From: Cetorhinus maximus
Lineage: Eukaryota
NCBI RefSeq assembly: GCF_964194155.1
Contig: NC_135892.1
Coordinates: 79,174,001 to 79,238,000 of the forward strand
Reading direction: 5' to 3'
DNA: 64,000 nt
Numbering within the stretch: the stretch's first letter is position 1; each line of letters starts with the position of its first letter. The notes under the pieces were generated by a model that was given only the letters and a program-made list of their open reading frames with translations, did no database searches and had not been told where the DNA came from. Positions 959 to 35,413 of the stretch are shown here, one piece after another. Both the position numbers and the translations under genes were made by a program.

Positions 959-2240
959 AGATAAAAGCAAAGAACTGCGGATGCTGGAAATCCAAAACAA
1001 AAACAGAAACAAATACCTGGAAAAACTCAACAGGTCTGGCAGCGTCGGAGCAAAGAACTGCGGATGCTGGAAATGAGGGCATCCGCCCTCACGCCTTCTC
1101 CTCCCTCCCAGAAACATGATAGGGTTCCCCTTGTCCTCACTTATCACTCCACCAGCCTCCGCATTCAAAGGATCATCCTCCGCCATTTCCGCCAACTCCA
1201 GCATGATGCCACCACCAAACACATCTTCCCTCCACCCCCCCTGGTGGCATTCTGTAGGGATCGTTCCCTCCATGACACCCTGGTCCACTCCTCCATCACC
1301 CCCTACTCCTCAACCCCCTCCCACGGCACCTTCCCATGCAACCACAGAAGATGCAACACCTGCCCCTTCACTTCCTCTCTCCTCACTGTCCAAGGGCACA
1401 AACACTCCTTTCAAGTGAAGCAGCATTTCACTTGCACTTTCCTCAACTTAGTCTACTGCATTCGTTGCTCCCAATGCGGTTTCCTCTACATTGGAGAGAC
1501 CAAACACAGACTGGGTGACCGCTTTGCAGAACACCTTCGGTCTGTCCGCAAGCATTACCCAGACCTCCCTGTCGCTTGCCATTTCAACACTCCACCCTGC
1601 TCTCAAGCCCACATGTCTGTCCTTGGCTTGCTGCATTGTTCCAGTGAAGCTCAACTTCAAACGCAAACTGGAGGAACAGCACCTCATCTTCCGACTAGGC
1701 ACTTTACAGCCTTCCGGACTGAATATTGAGTTCAACAATTTTAGATCATGAACTCTCTCCTCCATCCCCACCCACTTACCGTTTCTTCCCCCTCCTCTTT
1801 GTTTTTTCCAATAATTTATATAGATTTTTCTTTTCCCACCTATTTCCATTATTTTAAAATATATTTCCACCTATTGTTTTATCTCTACCTTTTAGCCCTT
1901 TTAGTATTCCTTCACCCCACCCCACCCCCACTAGGGCTATCTGTACCTTGTTTGTCCTGCTTTCTACCCTTAATTAGCACATTCCTTTAGATAATATCAC
2001 CACCTTCAACACCTCTTTGTCCTTTTGTCTGCGACATCTTTTGGTTATCTCCACCTATCACTGGCTTCTTGTCCCAACAAACACCCCCCCCCCCCCCACC
2101 TTAAACCAGCTTATATTTCACCCCTTTCCTATTTTTACTTAGTTCTGTTGAAGGGTCATGAGGACTCAAAACGTCAACTGTGCTCTTCTCCACCGATGCT
2201 GCCAGACCTGCTGAGTTTTTCCAGGTGTTTCTGTTTTTGT
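959..2240 (+). mobile_element. Penelope-like element, 5'-truncated, GIY-YIG endonuclease, short inverted terminal arm
   Basis: ORF 1064-1729 with NLVYCIRCSQCGFLYIGETKHRLGDRFAEH, frameshifted near its end. 961-1049 is the reverse complement of the element 3' end. 14-bp TSD ATTGGTTTTACTAG at 945-958 and 2241-2254. Confidence 0.9.
2141..2179 (+). ncRNA. Degenerate minimal hammerhead ribozyme motif in PLE terminus
   Basis: AGTT-CTGTTGA-A-GGGTC-ATGAG-GACTC-AAAAC-GTC-AACT. Core positions A6 and G12 are substituted. Confidence 0.55.
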
Positions 2241-14150: not shown

Positions 14151-14735
14151 ATCTAAACAATAGGGACATTTTATAATACAAAAGTACAATGCTGCAGATG
14201 CTGGGATATGTTAAATAAAAACAGAAATAGAAAATACTGGAATACTCAGCAGATCAGAATGCATCTGCGGAGAGAAACAGAGTCAACATTTCATATCGAT
14301 GAGCTTTCACCAGATCTGAGGGAAAGATGTAATAGGATTTCAGCCAGTGAAAATGTGTGAGGAAGAACAGGGTCTGTTAAAGGGTCACTGGAGAGATTAA
14401 ATGACAAAAGGTTTCATAGTACCAAAGGGAATGAAACGGGGAAAATAAAGAAACAACCAAGTGTGTCCAGAAGAAGTGCGAGTGGCTGCATAGTTGACGT
14501 CGAAATGCAGTGAAGGAATAAAGAAAGAAACCAGAAAAAACAAACCAAAATACAACATGAAATGAAATAAAATGGGGGCAGAGGTTATGATCTAAAATTG
14601 CCGAATTCATTATTGAGTCCAGAAGGCTGTAGAGTTAAAAACAAAAAAACTACTGCGGATGCTGGAAATCCAAAACAAAAACAGAATTACCTGGAAAAAC
14701 TCAGCAGGTCTGGCAGCATCGGCGGAGAAGAAAAG

Positions 14736-14774
14736 AGTTGACGTTTCGAGTCCTCATGACCCTTCAGCAGAACT
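14736..14774 (-). ncRNA. Minimal type I hammerhead ribozyme motif (A6C variant)
   Basis: Minus strand AGTT-CTGCTGA-A-GGGTC-ATGAG-GACTC-GAAAC-GTC-AACT. Stem I AGTT/AACT, stem II, and a palindromic ACGT in place of helix III. Confidence 0.7.
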
Positions 14775-15898
14775 GAGTAAAGTTAGGAGAGGGGTGAAAT
14801 ATAAGCTGGTTTGGGAGGGGGAGAGAAGTGGGGGGGGGGGGGAGGTGGTTGTAGGGACAAGCAAGCAGTGATAGGAGCAGATAATCAAAAGATGTCACAG
14901 ACAAAGGAACAAAGACAAAGTGTAAAAGGTGGTGATATTATCTAAGAGAATGTGCTAATTAAGAATGGATGGCAGGTACTCAAGGTACAGCTCTAGTGGG
15001 GGTGGGGTGGGGTGGAAAGACTGACAGGGCATTACAGTTATAGATTTAAAAATAATGGAAATAGGTGGGAAAAGAAAAATTTCTTTGCATTGGGAACAAT
15101 GAATGCACCCCTATTCCTCAACCCCCACCTCTGGCACCTCCCCATGCCCACGCAGAAGATGCAACACCTGCTCCTTCACTTCCTCTCTCCTCACCGTCCA
15201 AGGGCCCAAACACTCCTTTCAAGTGAAGCAGCATTTCACTTGCATTTCCCCTAACTTAGTCTACTGCATTCGTTGCTCCCAATGCGGTCTCCTCTACATT
15301 GGAGAGACCAAACGCAAACTGGGCGACCGCTTTGCAGAACACCTTCGGTCTGTACGCAAGAAAGACCCAAACCTCCCTGTCGCTTGCCATTTTAACACTC
15401 CACCCTGCTCTCTTGCCCATATGTCTGTCCTTGGCTTGCTGCATTGTTCCAGTGAAGCCCAATGCAAACTGGAGGAACAGCACCTCATCTTCCGACTAGG
15501 CACTTTACAGCCTTCCGGACTAAATATTGAATTCAACAACTTTAGATCTTGAACTCCCTCCCCCATCCCCACCCCCTTTCCGTTTCTTCCCCCTCCCTTT
15601 TGTTTTTTCCAATAATTTATATAAATTTTTCTTTTCCCACCTATTTCCATTATTTTTAAATCTATAACTGTAATGCCCTGTCAGTCTTTCCACCCCACCC
15701 CCACTAGAGCTGTACCTTGAGTGTCCTGCCATCCATTCTTAATTAGCACATTCTCTTAGATAATATCACCACCTTTTACACTTTGTCTTTGTTCCTTTGT
15801 CTGTGACATCTTTTGATTATCTGCTCCTATCACTGCTTGCTGGTCCCCCCACCCCCCCTTAAACCAGCTTATATTTCACCCCTCTCCTAACTTTACTC

Positions 15899-15937
15899 AG
15901 TTCTGCTGAAGGGTCATGAGGACTCGAAACATCGACT
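15899..15937 (+). ncRNA. Minimal hammerhead ribozyme motif (opposite arm)
   Basis: AGTT-CTGCTGA-A-GGGTC-ATGAG-GACTC-GAAAC-ATC-GACT. Confidence 0.6.
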
Positions 15938-16919
15938 CTTTTCTTCTCTGCCGATGCTGCCAGGCTGTAGAGTGTTAAGTTGAAAGACGGGTGGTGCTGT
16001 TCCTCAAGCTTGCATTGAGATTCATGAGACACAAAAGATAGGAAGATCAAAATGGAAGCAAGGTGGAAAATTGAAATGACAAGTGTCAGGATCATGTTTG
16101 CAGACTAAACGGAGGTGTTCCGCAAAGCGGTCATACAGCCTGCATTTGTTCTCCCCAGTATAGACGAGACCGCATTGTGAGCAGTGAATACAGTATATTA
16201 AATTGAAAGTAGTACAAGTAAATTGCTGTTTCATTTGGAAGGAGTGTGTGGGGCCTTGATGAGAAGGGAGAAGGTAAAATGACAGGTGTTGCATCTCCTG
16301 GAAAGGTAGGAAAGGGAGAGGGTGTTGGGAATGACAGGAGTGAATCAGGGTGTCGTGGAGGGAAGGGTCCCTTCAGAATGCTGAAAGGTGAGTGGAAGAT
16401 GTATTTGGTGGTGGCTGCACGCTGTGGTTGGCCGAAATGTCGGCGATGATCTGTTGAGAAGAGGTTGGTGGGATGGAAGGTGAGAACAAGGGAACCCTAT
16501 CATATTTGTGGGAGGGAAGGGATGGGGTGAGAGCAGAAGTGCATGAAATAGGTTGGACACGGTGGAGGATCCTATCAACCACTTTGGAGGGGGATGGAAT
16601 GGTGGGGAGATCCCCGGTTGAGGAAAAATAAGACATATTGAAAATGCTACTTTAGAAGGTTACCTCATCTGAGCATGTGCGACGGATGGAGAAACTGGGA
16701 GAATGGAATTCTTACAGAAAGTGGGTTGTGATGAAGTGTAGTCAAAGTAGCTGTGGGAGTCATGGGCTTGTCGTGAATTTGTAGTGTGAGGCCATTTTAT
16801 AAACCTCTTGATTTGATCTGTAGGGTGACAGTAAGTTACCCTATGCCACCAAAAGGGAACATAAAATTGTAACAAGTGTTCTTGGGCACTACTAGTACAT
16901 TGACCAAACAATTAGTCAT

Positions 16920-22325: not shown

Positions 22326-23568
22326 CATAAAAGCAAAATACTGCGGATGTTGGAAATCTGAAACAAAAACAAAAATAGCTGGAAAAACTCAGCAGGTCTG
22401 ACAGCATCTGCAGAGAGTAATACAGTTAATGTTTCGAGTCCGTATGATTCTTCATCAGAACTAAGGAAATATAGAAATGAGGTGAAATATAAACTAGTTG
22501 AGAGGGGTACGACAGGTAGAGCTGGATAGAGAGCCAGTGATAAGTGGAGGCAAAGAAGAGATTGCCAAAGATGTCATAGACAAAAGGGTGTTGACGTTGG
22601 TGATATTAGCTAAGGAATGTGCTAATGGTGACATTAAGGGTAGAGAACAGGACGAGCAAGTGACAGATTACCCTAGTGGGGGTGGGGTAGGGGGGGGAAG
22701 GGATTGAAATAGGCTAAAATGTGGAGATAAAACAATGGATGAAAATAAATTTTAAAATAATGGAAAGGGGTAGGAAAAGAAAAATATATTAAAAAAAATT
22801 ATAAATTATTGGAAAAGGGGGGATCGGAAAGGGGGTGGGGATGGAGGAGAGAGTTCATGATCTGAAGTTGTTGAACTCAATGTTAAGTCCGGAAGGCTGT
22901 AAAGTGCCTAGTCGAAAGATGAGGTGCTGTTCCTCCAGTTTGCGTTGAGCTTCACTGGAACATTACAGCAGGTCAAGGATGTCCGTGTGGGCATGAGAGC
23001 AGGGTGATGTGTTGAAATGGCAAGCGACAGGGAGGTCTGGGTTATGCTTGCGGATAGACCGAAGGTGTTCTGCAAAGCGGTCACCCAGTTTGCGTTTGGT
23101 CTCTCCAATGTAGAGGAGACCGCATTGGGAGCAGCGAATGCAGTAGACTAAATTGAGGGAAGTGCAAGTGAAGTGCTGCTTCACTTGAAAGGAGTGTTTG
23201 GGCCCTTGGATGGTGAGGAGGGGGGTAAGTAAAGGGGCAGGTGTTGCACCTTCTGCGGTTGCATGGGAAGGTGCCATGGGAGTGGGTTGAGGTGTAGGGG
23301 GTGATGGAGGAGTGGACCAGGGTGTCCTGGAGGGAATGATCCCTGCGGAATGCTGCCTGGGTGGGTGAAGGGAAGATGTGTTTGGTGGTGGCGTCATGCT
23401 GGATTTGGCAGAAATGGCGGAGAATAATCCTTTGAATGTGGAGGCTGGTGGGGTGATAAGTGAGGACAAGGGGGACCCATTCATGGTGCTGGGAGGGAGA
23501 GGAAGGTGTGAGGGCGGATGCGCGGGAGATGGGCTGGACACGGTTGTGGGCCCTGTCAACCACTGTGG
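22326..23568 (-). mobile_element. Penelope-like element, 5'-truncated, no inverted arm
   Basis: Minus-strand NLVYCIRCSQCGLLYIGETKRKLGDRFAEH with one frameshift. Complete 3' end ATAAAAGCAAAATACTGCGGATG on the + strand. Confidence 0.9.
22424..22462 (-). ncRNA. Minimal hammerhead ribozyme motif with canonical CUGAUGA/GAAA core
   Basis: Minus strand AGTT-CTGATGA-A-GAATC-ATACG-GACTC-GAAAC-ATT-AACT. One stem II mismatch and a CpG-type change in helix III. Confidence 0.68.
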
Positions 23569-24022
23569 GTTAAATAGTTATTCTCTGAAAATTGTAGTTC
23601 AATTTCAATTTCTGGTTGCAGGGATAAGTTGGAATGCTAGATCCCTGAATTAATAACTAAAAGACTGAGACATACCATTTTCAGATTGGGGTCTTAAAAT
23701 TTGGAAAAGATTTATTGTTGACATCCTGGATCAATCAGGAAAAGGTTTATAGATCACATGAAGGAGGGTTGTGGCCTTAATCATCAGATGTATAATTTCT
23801 AGTCCATGCCCAGATACTTCACTGGTAAGACTGAAAAAAACTCTGTAACACTAAAGCCAGTTGAAGAATAATTTATGTCAAGTGATGCTTGTATTCTAGG
23901 ACAACTTCAGCCTCTAAAAAGGGCTGAAATAAAATCATGCCATATCTCAAAACACAGAGATATCCATACTAACAAAAGATTAATTTTTACTTATTAAAGA
24001 TACAGATTTTAAACATGCCTGG

Positions 24023-30650: not shown

Positions 30651-33613
30651 GACAGATATAAAAAAAGACCTGGCTTCATGTGAACAGCAAAATCTCTTAA
30701 TGATGTGAAAAAGGTGGCAAACATTATTTGAAATGAAACATTCCTTCTGAAACATACACTATGATCCAAGAACAGTGTTACATTCAGTAATCATTAAATA
30801 AAAACACATCATAAATGCATTCTTTTGCTGAAGGATTCAGCCCTGACCATCTGTGGCTTTACCTGTCACATTATAGTATATGCATCATGTTACTCCAACA
30901 GTGTATGCAGTGGTCTCTGAATCTGAATGACAGAAGTTTCAAAGGGCAGGTGGGAGCTAAATCCATCATGTTATAAAATACAACATAGTATTACAATTTG
31001 AAAGTAAAAGCAATGTAATATGGTGCTGACCGGATTGCCACTGATCCTGCTTTATTAGTACCACTGTTTTACAAGCTGCGATCCAGAGGATATGACGTCT
31101 AACTGATAAGAGGTAATGTAAGTCGTTGTGATGATGAAGTTACAAGTGGAATATAAATGATATCCACAGCTTCTCTTGTAGATTTTTTTATTGGAATTGT
31201 TCAGTTACAATTAAAAGGGGAAAAAAAAACACACTTTTTTCATGGTGTGCAGGAGTGCATTTCATAGTGTGTAATATAAACAGAACACATGATTACACAC
31301 ATTAGTTGCATTTGTATCATACTCTAAATAACATTTTTTAAAGCAAGATTGGTAAAATTGATCAGGGGTTACATACATAGCTCCTGTGTCAAAGTACTAA
31401 ATTGCTGAGGATCTTTGTATATTGCAAATGAATTCTTACTGTCATGTGCATGTGTACCATTCTATTATTTAATAAATATTTTAGTTACTCTCCTGTGGTA
31501 TTGATTATAATGAGTCAGGAGGCAAAAGAACAATCTACCATAAAAGGCTACAACCATACACATTGTGGATTATTGAGCCTGGAAGTTGCTGCATATTTGC
31601 ACCTAAAGACATGTGCAATATAAGTGCAAATCAAACATACAGCCTAAAAATTGCAGAATTTTGAGTGTAAATACGTTATATAGTTAAAACAGTACAACCT
31701 CCCCGATTTTTTTTAAAGATTGTTTATTGAACCCTCAGCCAAATGCTTCTCAATAATTATGATCCCATCCCAATTTATAGAACCTTTTAGGCAAGATTCC
31801 TGCAAGTGCACTTACTCATAAGCTCTCTTTGAATTAAGGCCAGATTTTCAGTGGGAAGCAGTAATTTTTCTGGCGGTATATTAAATTTTATTTAGTATTT
31901 TAAAAAATTCTTGTCAATCAATTTTCAGTTTCTTCGATTTTAAATGGCATAGGTATAAATCATATTAAAAATTGAAAAGCTTCCTTGATTGCAGGTTCTT
32001 AAAGTGCTGTCCCTAAGGTTGTGAAAGGTGCCATGTAAATGCAAGTTCCTTTTTCTGTTATGTGGTCTGTTGCAGCTCTAGTTCAAGTATAATAAGGCCT
32101 AGGACGACCAGGGTTGGAAATCAATTATGCTTGCTTGGCAGTTTTATCCCTATTTTTAAAGCCCAGAATACTTGAAGATGGCAGGGAAGATGGTTCCGAT
32201 TGCAAGTAGGTAATGGCATGCAGCGGTAGTAAATGGGTGAGAGGAGTGGGGAGAAATAGTAGTTCTGTCAAATGCTTTGGTGGTTCTAGGATCTGGGAAC
32301 AGTGGGATTACAATGTGGGTGTCAGGAAGTTGCAAGTAGTCAAAGCATTTGAGTGGCCTGAGACTAATGGGAGTGGTGTGTTAGTGTGTGGCAGCAATAG
32401 CTGGTCTGGGTTTGGCAATGCAAGGTACATGGTGAGTCGTAGGAATAGTGGAGAGAGGATCCTGGATTAGTATTGGGATCAGTGAGTACAGGAGTGTTTA
32501 ACAACAATGGTTCGGGGAAGGGTATTACAGGATCTGGAAATACAGGAAGGAGGGTCCTAGTTTTGTGAGTGCTGGAATAGATGTGTGGTCAGATTGGAAT
32601 TGTTGGGATCCTCAAACTCAGGACTGGTGGGAGAGGCAGGGATAGTTTGATAACATGGCGAGTGTACTTAATGTATCCTTGGGCCTATAGTCAACCGTCC
32701 CAGTATTGCTACAACACTGGCATCTGCCCAGGTACATGTTGTCCACAAAAAGCAGGAAAATCCGATCCGACCAATTACTGCCCATCAACTTATTCTCAAT
32801 CATTATGGAAGGGATCATTGACAATGCTACAAAGTGGTATTTACTCACATGCTCACCAGTGCTCGGTTTGGATTTCGCCAGGACTACTCTGCTCTAGTCT
32901 TCGTTACAGTCTTGATCCAAAATGGGCAAGAAAGCTGGATATTGAGGTGAGACTGCCTTTAACTTCAAGGCAGCATTTGATTGAGTATGGCATCATGGAG
33001 CTTTTGTAAAACTGAAGTTGATGTAGTTGGAGAAAACTCCACTGGTTGGAGTCATACTTGGCACAAAGGAATAAGGTAGCAGTTGCCTGAGGCCAATCAC
33101 CTCAGCCCCAAGGCATTGTGGCAGGAGTTCCTCAGGGCAGTGTCTAGGCCCAACTATCTTTAGCTGCTTCATCAATGAACTTCCCTCCGTCATAAGATCA
33201 GTAGTGGGATGTTTGCTAATGATTGCACGGTGTTCAGTTCTATTTGAAACTCCTCTGAAATTGAAGTAGTATGTGCCCACAATCAGCAAGACCTAGACAA
33301 TATTCAGGTTTGGGCTGATAAGTGGTAGGAAACATCTGTGCCACTGTTACGACCATGTGAGGAGGGGTGAAATTATTGTCCTATTCTTCAGTTGCAGGTT
33401 TGACTATAACAGGGTTTTTTTGTGAATTTAGAGAGGATGTGCTTCGCCAGTTCTATAAGTCCTACTATTTATGCTTTCAGGTTGTAAAGTATTACTCAGA
33501 CAGATTTTCTTAGGTTAAATAAAGAACAGGTTTATTGAAACAACAACACCCATCATCACACACATTCAGTTGGAAAAACTCAGCAGGTCTGACAGCATCT
33601 GCGGAGAGGAATA

Positions 33614-33654
33614 CAGTTAACATTTCGAGTCCGTATGACTCTTCATCAGAACTG
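33614..33654 (-). ncRNA. Minimal hammerhead ribozyme motif, canonical core
   Basis: Minus strand CAGTT-CTGATGA-A-GAGTC-ATACG-GACTC-GAAA-T-GTT-AACTG, with perfect 5-bp stems I and II. Confidence 0.72.
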
Positions 33655-34361
33655 AAGAAAAATAGAAATGAGGTGAAATATAAGCTGGTTGAGGGGGGTG
33701 GGACAGGTAGAGCTGGATAGAGGGCCAGTGATAGGTCGAGGCAAAGAAGAGATTGCCAAAGATGTCATAGACAAAAGGACAAAGGGGTGTTGACGGTGGT
33801 GATATTAGCTAAGAAAGGTGCTAATGGATATTAAGGATAGAAAGCAGGATGAGCAAGTGACAAATAGCCCTAGTGGGGGTGGGGTCAGGGGAAAGGATTG
33901 AAATAGGCTAAAAGGTGGAGATGAAACAATAGATGGGAATACATTTAAAAATAATGGAAATAGGAGGAAAAAGAAAAATATGTTTAAAAAATATAAATAA
34001 TTAGAAAAAGGGGGATCAGAAAGGGGGATGGGATGGAGGAGAGAGTTCATGACCTATTTCCATTATTTTTAAATGTATTCCCATCTATTGTTTCGTCTCC
34101 ACCTTTTAGCCTATTTCAATCCCTTCTCCCCACCCCATCCCCATTAGGGCTATCTGTCACTTGCTCCTCCTGCTTTCTACCCTTAATGTCACCATTAGCA
34201 CCTTTCTTAGCTAATATCACCACCGTCAACACCCCTTTGTCCTTTTGTCTATGACATCTTTGGCAATCTCTTTGCCTCCACCTATCACTGGCCCTCTATC
34301 CAGCTCTATCTGTCCCACCCCCCTCAATCAGCTTATATTTCACCTCATTTCTATTTTTCTT

Positions 34362-34402
34362 CAGTTTTGATGAAGAGTCATACGGACTCGAAACGTTAAC
34401 TG
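34362..34402 (+). ncRNA. Minimal hammerhead ribozyme motif, C3U variant
   Basis: CAGTT-TTGATGA-A-GAGTC-ATACG-GACTC-GAAAC-GTT-AACTG. Confidence 0.65.
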
Positions 34403-34723
34403 TATTCCTCTCCTCAGATGCTGTCAGACCTGCTGAGTTTTTCCAGCTATTTTTACTTTTGTTTCAGATTTCCAGCATCCGCAGTATTTTGCTTTTATCA
34501 CACACATTCATCTGGGCCCACACACACGGTACAAATGGCATAGTAAGAGGATAGGCATACAGCATTTTTACAGTTCATGAAAAATAAAACAAAAGAGTAT
34601 ACGGTTAGCTGTTCCTTTGCTGGTCTCGATGTGGTGGTTCCACGTTGCGGCCGGCTTGTTCAGCTGCGTTCCTGGATATAGTTGTATGGAGCAGTTTTCT
34701 AATTTTTTACCGAAAAGACATCA

Positions 34724-35413
34724 GGCCAGGATTTCCCGATTGGCGAGTGGGAGTCGGGGCCTGCTTGCCTACATGTAAAATGACACCCGGTGACGTCGGG
34801 CGGAACTCCCGACGTCACCCCGCCCCATTTAAATTTTCAGGTAGGCAGGGGCTCGGCAGAATCAGCTGTGCGCCTGCCAACCTGTCAGTGGCCAATTGAG
34901 GCCATTGACAAAGTCATTAAAGTCATTAGTGGACCTGCTCGTCCAATCTTAAGGTTGGCAGGCAGGCCGGGAGCTCTGGCGGACATTAGAAAAAGCATGA
35001 AACCTCATCCACGGGTGGGATGATGTTTCATGCAGGTTTTAAAAAATGTAATAAAAGTGTATTTGAAAGTGATGGACATGTCCCAACTCATGTGACAGTG
35101 TCACATGAGGGCATATGTCAGGGAATTTTTTTTCTTCTATTTTTCAGATTTTTTTATTGTGGAGCCAATCTCCCTGATCACTTAGCCTCAGGGAGATGAG
35201 TGCGCTCTTTCGTGCACATGTGCGAAAGAGTGCACTCTCAGCTCAGGGAATTCCCCCCCCGCCCGCTCGCACAGGGAGCGCATAGCGGACCTTAATTGGC
35301 CTGCCCACGTAAAATGGCAGCATGCCCCCAATTGGGGGCGCCAATCGGAGGCGTGCCTCCACGCGCCCGTTCCTAAACTTCCCCCCACCCCCGCCGGGGG
35401 GAAAATTCTACTC
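34724..35413 (+). mobile_element. Hairpin-rich MITE (GGGCAGAATTTT-type TIR), copy 1
   Basis: Degenerate TIRs GGCCAGGATTTC / AAAATTCTACTC with flanks TCA/TCG. Homologous to 41003-41647, 53484-54170 and 55344-55925. Confidence 0.75.

What the first reader, a model, noticed from the sequence alone, without database searches (positions are those of the whole stretch)
33569..34496. Non-coding ~930-bp palindromic PLE insertion with one hammerhead per strand and a perfect 14-bp TSD
Seen: two inverted arms of about 390 bp, no GIY-YIG or RT sequence, one arm with the complete 3' tail and the other truncated, bounded by an exact TSD, so it inserted as one event. Inference: either a by-product of PLE inversion during target-primed reverse transcription, or a non-autonomous ribozyme-bearing hairpin retroelement that propagates as a unit (retrozyme-like but inverted).
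Basis: partly seen in the sequence, partly recalled or inferred. Interest (0 to 1): 0.7.

Follow-up and report, generated by a model that had tools for sequence, protein, structure and literature searches.

The report
Head-to-head Penelope retrotransposon insertion scar
This mirror-image stretch is a decayed, one-off insertion of a very common jumping gene (a Penelope-like retrotransposon) that landed as two head-to-head copies of its ribozyme-bearing end, a layout already described for this class and likely shared by thousands of sites in this genome.

Summary
The palindrome is real: 393 paired columns with 18 substitutions, a 48-nt tail on one arm only, and an exact 14-bp TSD. Both arms are 3' ends of a Penelope-like element (RT plus GIY-YIG) whose hammerhead motif has 39,602 genome matches. 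Of 97 hammerhead-anchored loci, 27 are head-to-head, all pairing one tailed with one tail-less arm, with varied junctions and a TSD mode of 14 bp. The junction recurs at one other locus, whose two arms belong to another subfamily (common descent rejected, p-AU 0.007). Even mini-palindromes with identical junctions arose independently. Both hammerheads are mutated (C3U in the core; C15.2U) and would be buried in the arm duplex. Each arm holds sequence the other lacks, which argues for two separate reverse-transcription events rather than simple fold-back (inferred). The layout is in print (PMC8557442, PMC3846280, PMC4209133), and this scan noted it before in other genomes.

The parts
33555..33568 (+). 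Left copy of the 14-bp target-site duplication
   Evidence: Exact match to 34497-34510
33569..34055 (-). Inverted, tail-less arm: 3' end of the PLE from the ORF's last codon to 48 nt short of the tail end
   Evidence: Maps to 539 to 48 nt from the 3' end of long copy L139 at 92%
33614..33654 (-). Minimal type I hammerhead motif, C15.2 changed to U
   Evidence: Motif scan and stems
33965..34052 (-). Unpaired 88 nt: extra 5' reach of the left arm, ordinary PLE 3' UTR plus the ORF stop at 34049-34047
   Evidence: 94-97% to single-orientation family copies; parent C-terminus read
34052..34055 (.). Head-to-head junction on an imperfect 4-nt microhomology (A-T/C-C-T)
   Evidence: Parent sequences on both sides; arms overlap by 4 nt
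34053..34496 (+). Tailed arm: last ~445 nt of the PLE
   Evidence: Maps to 449 to 0 nt from the 3' end of L139 at 92%
34362..34402 (+). Minimal type I hammerhead motif with the core change C3U
34449..34496 (+). 48-nt tail present on this arm only
34497..34510 (+). Right copy of the target-site duplication; first 3 nt also match the element's continuation after the tail
22329..23570 (-). Longer copy of the same family in this window, carrying a broken GIY-YIG endonuclease end (identifies the parent; separate insertion)
   Evidence: 87-88% to the arms by BLAST; Pfam PF01541 E 6.5e-5, above cut-off

Best explanation
This is a decayed, single insertion of two head-to-head 3' ends of an endonuclease-bearing Penelope-like element between a 14-bp target duplication, likely made when the element's enzyme primed reverse transcription separately at both cut DNA strands and the two short copies were then joined. 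In detail: the GIY-YIG nuclease cut the two strands about 14 bp apart (inferred from the TSD). One cut strand copied element RNA from the tail end, giving the tailed 445-nt arm; the other copied from a second start about 50 nt further in, giving the tail-less 490-nt arm (inferred). Both copies stopped early, short of nearly all the ORF, and were joined at a 4-nt imperfect microhomology (junction shown, joining step inferred). The hammerheads are passengers of the parent's terminal repeat. The unit has left no detectable offspring.
For: Parent: same 3' end continues into GIY-YIG and RT (PF00078 E 9.6e-8 in L137); L138 is a tandem unit with same-strand hammerheads 3,247 nt apart. Routine product: 27 of 97 hammerhead-anchored loci are head-to-head (23 direct, 4 with inner pieces; 95% CI 19-38%), 27 of 27 pair a tailed with a tail-less arm; a TSD of 9 nt or more was found at 24 of 28 tried (window included), 10 of them 14 bp. 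One event: the two arms are sister tips among 83 copies (support 0.73) and rank 1 and 2 for each other. Two templating events: the left arm has about 90 nt that the right lacks and the right 48 nt that the left lacks, so neither can be a fold-back copy of the other; among 23 direct palindromes the tail-less arm is longer in 7, the tailed in 6, equal within 5 nt in 10. In vitro, a PLE protein cuts and extends both strands and starts at two adjacent RNA sites whose spacing is the tail (PMC11167929). No offspring; computed sensitivity 0.96 at 4.6% and 0.82 at 8% divergence, indels ignored.
Against: L032 (C10:51.33 Mb) has the same junction register, the same arm asymmetry and a tail-less start at the same place, 52 nt from the end on one reference; only 4 palindromes had exact anchors in that neighbourhood and 2 share the register. 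Microhomology between TSD end and tail-less arm, expected if that strand primes on RNA, is weak: 4 of 24 have 2 nt or more against 6.5% of 552 control pairs, and this locus shows none by the exact test. Sister support for the window arms is modest (0.73) and one other copy ties at 95.4% with the right arm. PMC11167929 saw no difference in start site between the two strands, which does not by itself explain the strict tailed/tail-less pairing. The sample is the first 100 exact matches on one contig, so it favours better-preserved copies.
Confidence: 0.9

Rival explanations
1. Same by-product, but made by self-priming: an antisense element RNA (or a first cDNA) folds back at the junction and is copied, with ends trimmed during integration, as proposed for rotifer Penelopes. 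This competes with the two-priming step only, not with the by-product verdict.
For: PMC3846280 proposes self-priming on an antisense template for head-to-head junctions (passages). Arms are sisters in 4 long palindromes (window, L084, L092, L032), as one template predicts. The junction has microhomology.
Against: Each arm holds sequence the other lacks, and either arm can be the longer (7 vs 6), so trimming or a template switch must be added. Many mini-palindrome junctions carry extra bases between the arms.
Confidence: 0.3
2. A non-autonomous hairpin element that is transcribed and re-inserted whole.
For: One other locus shares the junction register and asymmetry (L032). Identical junctions recur among mini-palindromes: 8 and 5 of the first 50 loci listed.
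Against: L032's arms are 97.4% alike but 87-88% to the window arms, which rank 33rd-41st of 82 for them; holding the four arms in one clade is rejected, p-AU 0.007; its unpaired part also matches other copies best. A control junction neighbourhood gave 10 palindromes with 9 different spacings, one pair equal. In the identical-junction mini-palindromes the junction faces the tail either way (4 vs 4; 3 vs 2) and the tail-less arm starts 29-57 nt from the end in 13 of 14 (one at 94), each with its own flanks. One hammerhead per strand cannot release a monomer; folding it costs about 60 kcal/mol against the arm duplex.
Confidence: 0.03
3. Two independent insertions, or a later rearrangement or assembly artefact, that happen to lie head to head.
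For: The family is dense (about one hammerhead match per 100 kb; 10 fragments in this window).
Against: One TSD encloses both arms; arms are sisters; 18 substitutions between the arms rule out a read-level fold-back artefact; 27 of 27 pairs obey the tailed/tail-less rule.
Confidence: 0.03

Closest known systems
Inverted-repeat insertion units of endonuclease-positive Penelope-like elements (PMC8557442 passages; PMC3846280 passages)
   Same: Inverted 5'-truncated copy adjacent at the 5' end, head-to-head junction, tail on one end only, one TSD round the whole, hammerhead in the terminal repeat.
   Different: Both arms are cut short before the ORF; tail difference is 48 nt here against the 30-40 nt described (family mode 30-39); TSD mode 14 bp against 8-10 bp in the rotifer examples; no perfect palindrome at the junction.
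Dual minimal hammerheads on opposite strands in Schistosoma PLE remnants (PMC4209133, parts 1-2 of 4 read)
   Same: Minimal type I motifs 100-700 bp apart on opposite strands, read there as truncated PLEs; here about 720 bp apart.
   Different: Different host and family; that paper did not describe TSDs or tails for those pairs in the parts read.
Neptune (or Nematis) clade of PLEs
   Same: [quoted passage not shown]
   Different: No RT tree was built, so Neptune versus Nematis is not decided here.
Animal non-LTR retrozymes (PMC7761336 passages; bioRxiv 10.64898/2026.07.22.740005 part 1 of 5 and passages)
   Same: Non-coding, PLE-derived, type I hammerhead.
   Different: Retrozymes are head-to-tail tandems with two same-strand hammerheads that release a circular RNA; this is head-to-head with one damaged hammerhead per strand and no offspring.

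Membership tests
EN+ Penelope-like element insertion | Parent encodes RT plus C-terminal GIY-YIG | tested here: met
   PF00078 above cut-off in L137, both domains weakly in L136; PF01541 above cut-off in the window copy; all copies read are broken
EN+ Penelope-like element insertion | Partial tandem with pseudo-LTRs in the parent | tested here: met
   L138: same-strand hammerheads 3,247 nt apart, upstream repeat runs on into the body; 1 of 10 long loci fetched showed this
EN+ Penelope-like element insertion | Inverted 5'-truncated copy adjacent at the 5' end | tested here: met
   This locus and 27 of 97 sampled loci
EN+ Penelope-like element insertion | 30-40 nt tail at one end only | tested here: met
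   48 nt here; 3' ends in the sample cluster at 0-9 and 25-39 nt
EN+ Penelope-like element insertion | Target-site duplication | tested here: met
   14 bp; found at 24 of 28 tried
EN+ Penelope-like element insertion | Minimal type I hammerhead in the terminal repeat | tested here: met
   Motif and stems I and II present; not detected by Rfam
Neptune clade | CX2-5CxxC linker motif between RT and EN | tested here: met
   CX4CX2C in the window copy; shared with Nematis
Neptune clade | RT groups with Neptune in a tree | not tested
   No reference RTs were fetched
Non-LTR retrozyme | Tandem same-strand units, each with a hammerhead | tested here: not met
   One hammerhead per strand, head to head
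Non-LTR retrozyme | Intact, foldable hammerhead core | tested here: not met
   C3U on plus strand; both motifs buried, about 60 kcal/mol penalty
Non-LTR retrozyme | Spreads as a unit (many copies of the same unit) | tested here: not met
Non-LTR retrozyme | Expressed as a circular RNA | not testable with these tools
   Only assembled contigs were offered

The most novel reading that the evidence does not exclude
These scars record an unsolved step of the PLE cycle: each insertion uses both cut strands as primers on element RNA, one always at the tail start site and the other always at the inner start site (27 of 27 pairs), and the two cDNAs are end-joined. This genome holds thousands of such scars, enough to map both start sites, the nick spacing and a strong stop at the 5' edge of the hammerhead by counting alone. 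Two title-and-text searches found no paper that makes this count; the idea itself appears in earlier notes of this scan.
Probability: 0.5. Interest if true: 0.4.

Novelty: new member of a known kind. Interest (0 to 1): 0.13.

Why it matters
As a locus it is ordinary: one of probably several thousand similar remnants in this genome (estimate from 39,602 motif matches and 27 of 97 in head-to-head units). Its only wider value is as a data point on how PLEs integrate, which PMC8557442 and PMC11167929 call unresolved: the strict tailed/tail-less pairing and the non-nested arms constrain models of that step.

Tried and rejected
DNA search with the 161-nt junction: only this locus spanned it, but only 40 of 1,655 candidates were scored, so it was replaced by exhaustive pattern scans; its paired hits were overlapping matches to single arms, not palindromes. 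L063 (3 mismatches) has no family sequence and was dropped as chance. Rfam: no hit at gathering score; the miRNA-precursor hits at E 1e-11 are far below their cut-off of 211 bits and reflect any long hairpin. A 1,021-aa open frame in L106 had no Pfam family and was not pursued. Public runs (4 of 24 laid, all contigs): contigs of two other coded organisms cover the flanks and run 22-28 letters into the element ends, a hint that the insertion predates their split, but under the tool's 31-letter bar, so not counted. The one guessed-RNA run laid holds family sequence and has no depth in the unique flank bins; this says nothing on whether this locus is transcribed. Whether the junction itself stands in other individuals or in RNA remains open. 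TSD-to-arm microhomology test: weak. Sample bookkeeping: 100 listed hits gave 98 fetched loci (two pairs shared a stretch), L048 dropped as the same locus as L047, leaving 97. Supplements of the papers were not opened; those of PMC4209133 and PMC11167929 may show such pairs in more detail.

Full report
Observation. The region holds an inverted repeat whose arms lie at 33568-33964 and 34053-34448, with 18 substitutions in 393 columns. It is bounded by an exact 14-bp direct repeat at 33555-33568 and 34497-34510. Mapped on a long family copy, the left arm covers 539 to 48 nt from the element's 3' end on the minus strand and the right arm 449 to 0 nt on the plus strand. The 88-nt centre is therefore extra reach of the left arm, ending in the parent ORF's last codon and stop. 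Each strand carries a minimal type I hammerhead motif; the plus-strand one has C3U in the core and the minus-strand one C15.2U. In a transcript of the whole unit about 380 arm-to-arm pairs form, and forcing the hammerhead fold costs about 60 kcal/mol.

Parent. The same 3' end continues, in a copy at 22329-23570 of this window, into a GIY-YIG domain, and in longer copies elsewhere into a reverse transcriptase. A CX4CX2C motif before the nuclease points to the Neptune or Nematis clade as defined in PMC8557442 (passages); no tree was built. L138 is a tandem unit with hammerheads 3,247 nt apart whose upstream repeat runs on past the tail into the body, so the tail end is an internal point of the RNA, as PMC11167929 found for an anole PLE (main text read). 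The intact 28-nt hammerhead motif has 39,602 matches at up to 2 mismatches in the 3.99-Gb genome, against 0 for the reversed control. That the host is a cartilaginous fish is my guess from recall and from earlier notes, not tested.

Is the layout special? I took the first 100 exact motif matches on contig C1, which gave 97 independent loci. In 27 of 97 the anchored arm has a head-to-head partner (23 adjacent, 4 through inner pieces), and in 27 of 27 one arm is tailed and the other is not. A TSD of 9 nt or more was found at 24 of 28 tried, this locus included, with 14 bp the mode (10 of 24); mismatched flanks gave at most 9 in 420 pairs. Junctions differ from locus to locus. The window itself holds a second pair at 963-2240 with a 14-bp TSD. 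The layout matches the text of PMC8557442 (inverted truncated copy, one-sided tail), PMC3846280 (inverted repeat, tail, TSD) and PMC4209133 (hammerhead pairs on opposite strands).

Does this unit propagate? A 28-nt junction pattern with up to 3 mismatches found this locus and L032; a degenerate version added only a chance hit. Expected sensitivity is 0.96 for copies as old as the arms and 0.82 at 8% divergence. L032 is the main result against my reading: same register, same asymmetry, same tail-less start. But both of its arms are 97.4% alike and only 87-88% like ours, and a clade of the four arms is rejected (p-AU 0.007). The junction lies on an imperfect 4-nt microhomology whose odd base differs between the two loci. 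Two further palindromes nearby in sequence have other spacings. A control neighbourhood gave 10 palindromes with one pair of equal spacing. The strongest control is the class of back-to-back hammerhead mini-palindromes (295 loci with exact anchors): among the first 50, two junction strings recur 8 and 5 times, yet in those loci the junction faces the tail either way (4 vs 4, 3 vs 2) and the other arm's start varies. Identical junctions thus arise independently in this family.

Mechanism. Shown: one TSD, two overlapping arms, sister relationship of the arms among 83 copies, microhomology at the centre. Inferred: staggered nicks about 14 bp apart; one strand primes at the tail end and the other about 50 nt further in; both cDNAs abort and are end-joined. 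The argument against simple fold-back is that neither arm is a subset of the other, and across 23 direct palindromes either arm may be the longer (7 vs 6, 10 equal). PMC11167929 shows both strands cut and extended and two start sites, which makes this plausible; PMC3846280 offers antisense self-priming as the rival. My test for microhomology at the tail-less end was weak (4 of 24 vs 6.5%). I put 0.9 on the by-product verdict and roughly two to one on two-priming over self-priming.

Age and activity. About 2.3% change per arm (18 of 393, halved) and damaged hammerheads mark an old, dead copy. Expression could not be judged from the contigs offered.

Verdict. Real, correctly described in outline, and ordinary: a new instance of a known PLE insertion type. 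Paper searches run. Earlier notes of this scan report the same layout in at least 5 other genomes; they are AI notes and were used as leads only.

Noticed in passing
Genome-wide; sample L033-L135: 5' ends of family copies pile up 130-139 nt from the tail end, 2-8 nt upstream of the hammerhead core (61 ends, against 4, 3 and 8 in the next three 10-nt bins). Many such short copies have their own TSD, so they are true ~130-bp insertions. It may mark the RNA's 5' end or a reverse-transcription stop. Anchor selection forbids shorter anchors but does not explain the peak.
   Followed up: partly
Genome-wide; L146-L159: 295 mini-palindromes with back-to-back hammerheads within 20 nt; recurrent junction strings are independent events.
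   Followed up: yes
window 963-2240: Another tailed (80 nt, minus) plus tail-less (1.19 kb, plus) pair of a related subfamily with a 14-bp TSD at 945 and 2241.
   Followed up: yes
window 14647-16778: Older, more diverged head-to-head complex of the same superfamily (69-78% to L139); no clear TSD found.
   Followed up: partly
L032 / L145 (G000:C10:51.33 Mb): Palindrome of a younger subfamily with the same junction register as this locus, next to a (GAAGAT)n run; no clear TSD seen.
   Followed up: yes
L138:390-3826 (G000:C25:22.665 Mb): Near full-length tandem unit of the parent, about 3.25 kb, with a ~260-nt upstream repeat; reading frames broken.
   Followed up: partly
window 33090-33340: Left flank reads like a decayed LINE reverse-transcriptase fragment (recalled CR1-type motif in broken frames); not tested against a library.
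   Followed up: no
window 34720-35400: High-copy, GC-richer repeat with several short inverted repeats right of the element.
   Followed up: no
L106:2119-5181 (-): 1,021-residue stop-free frame with no Pfam match, upstream of a family copy.
   Followed up: no
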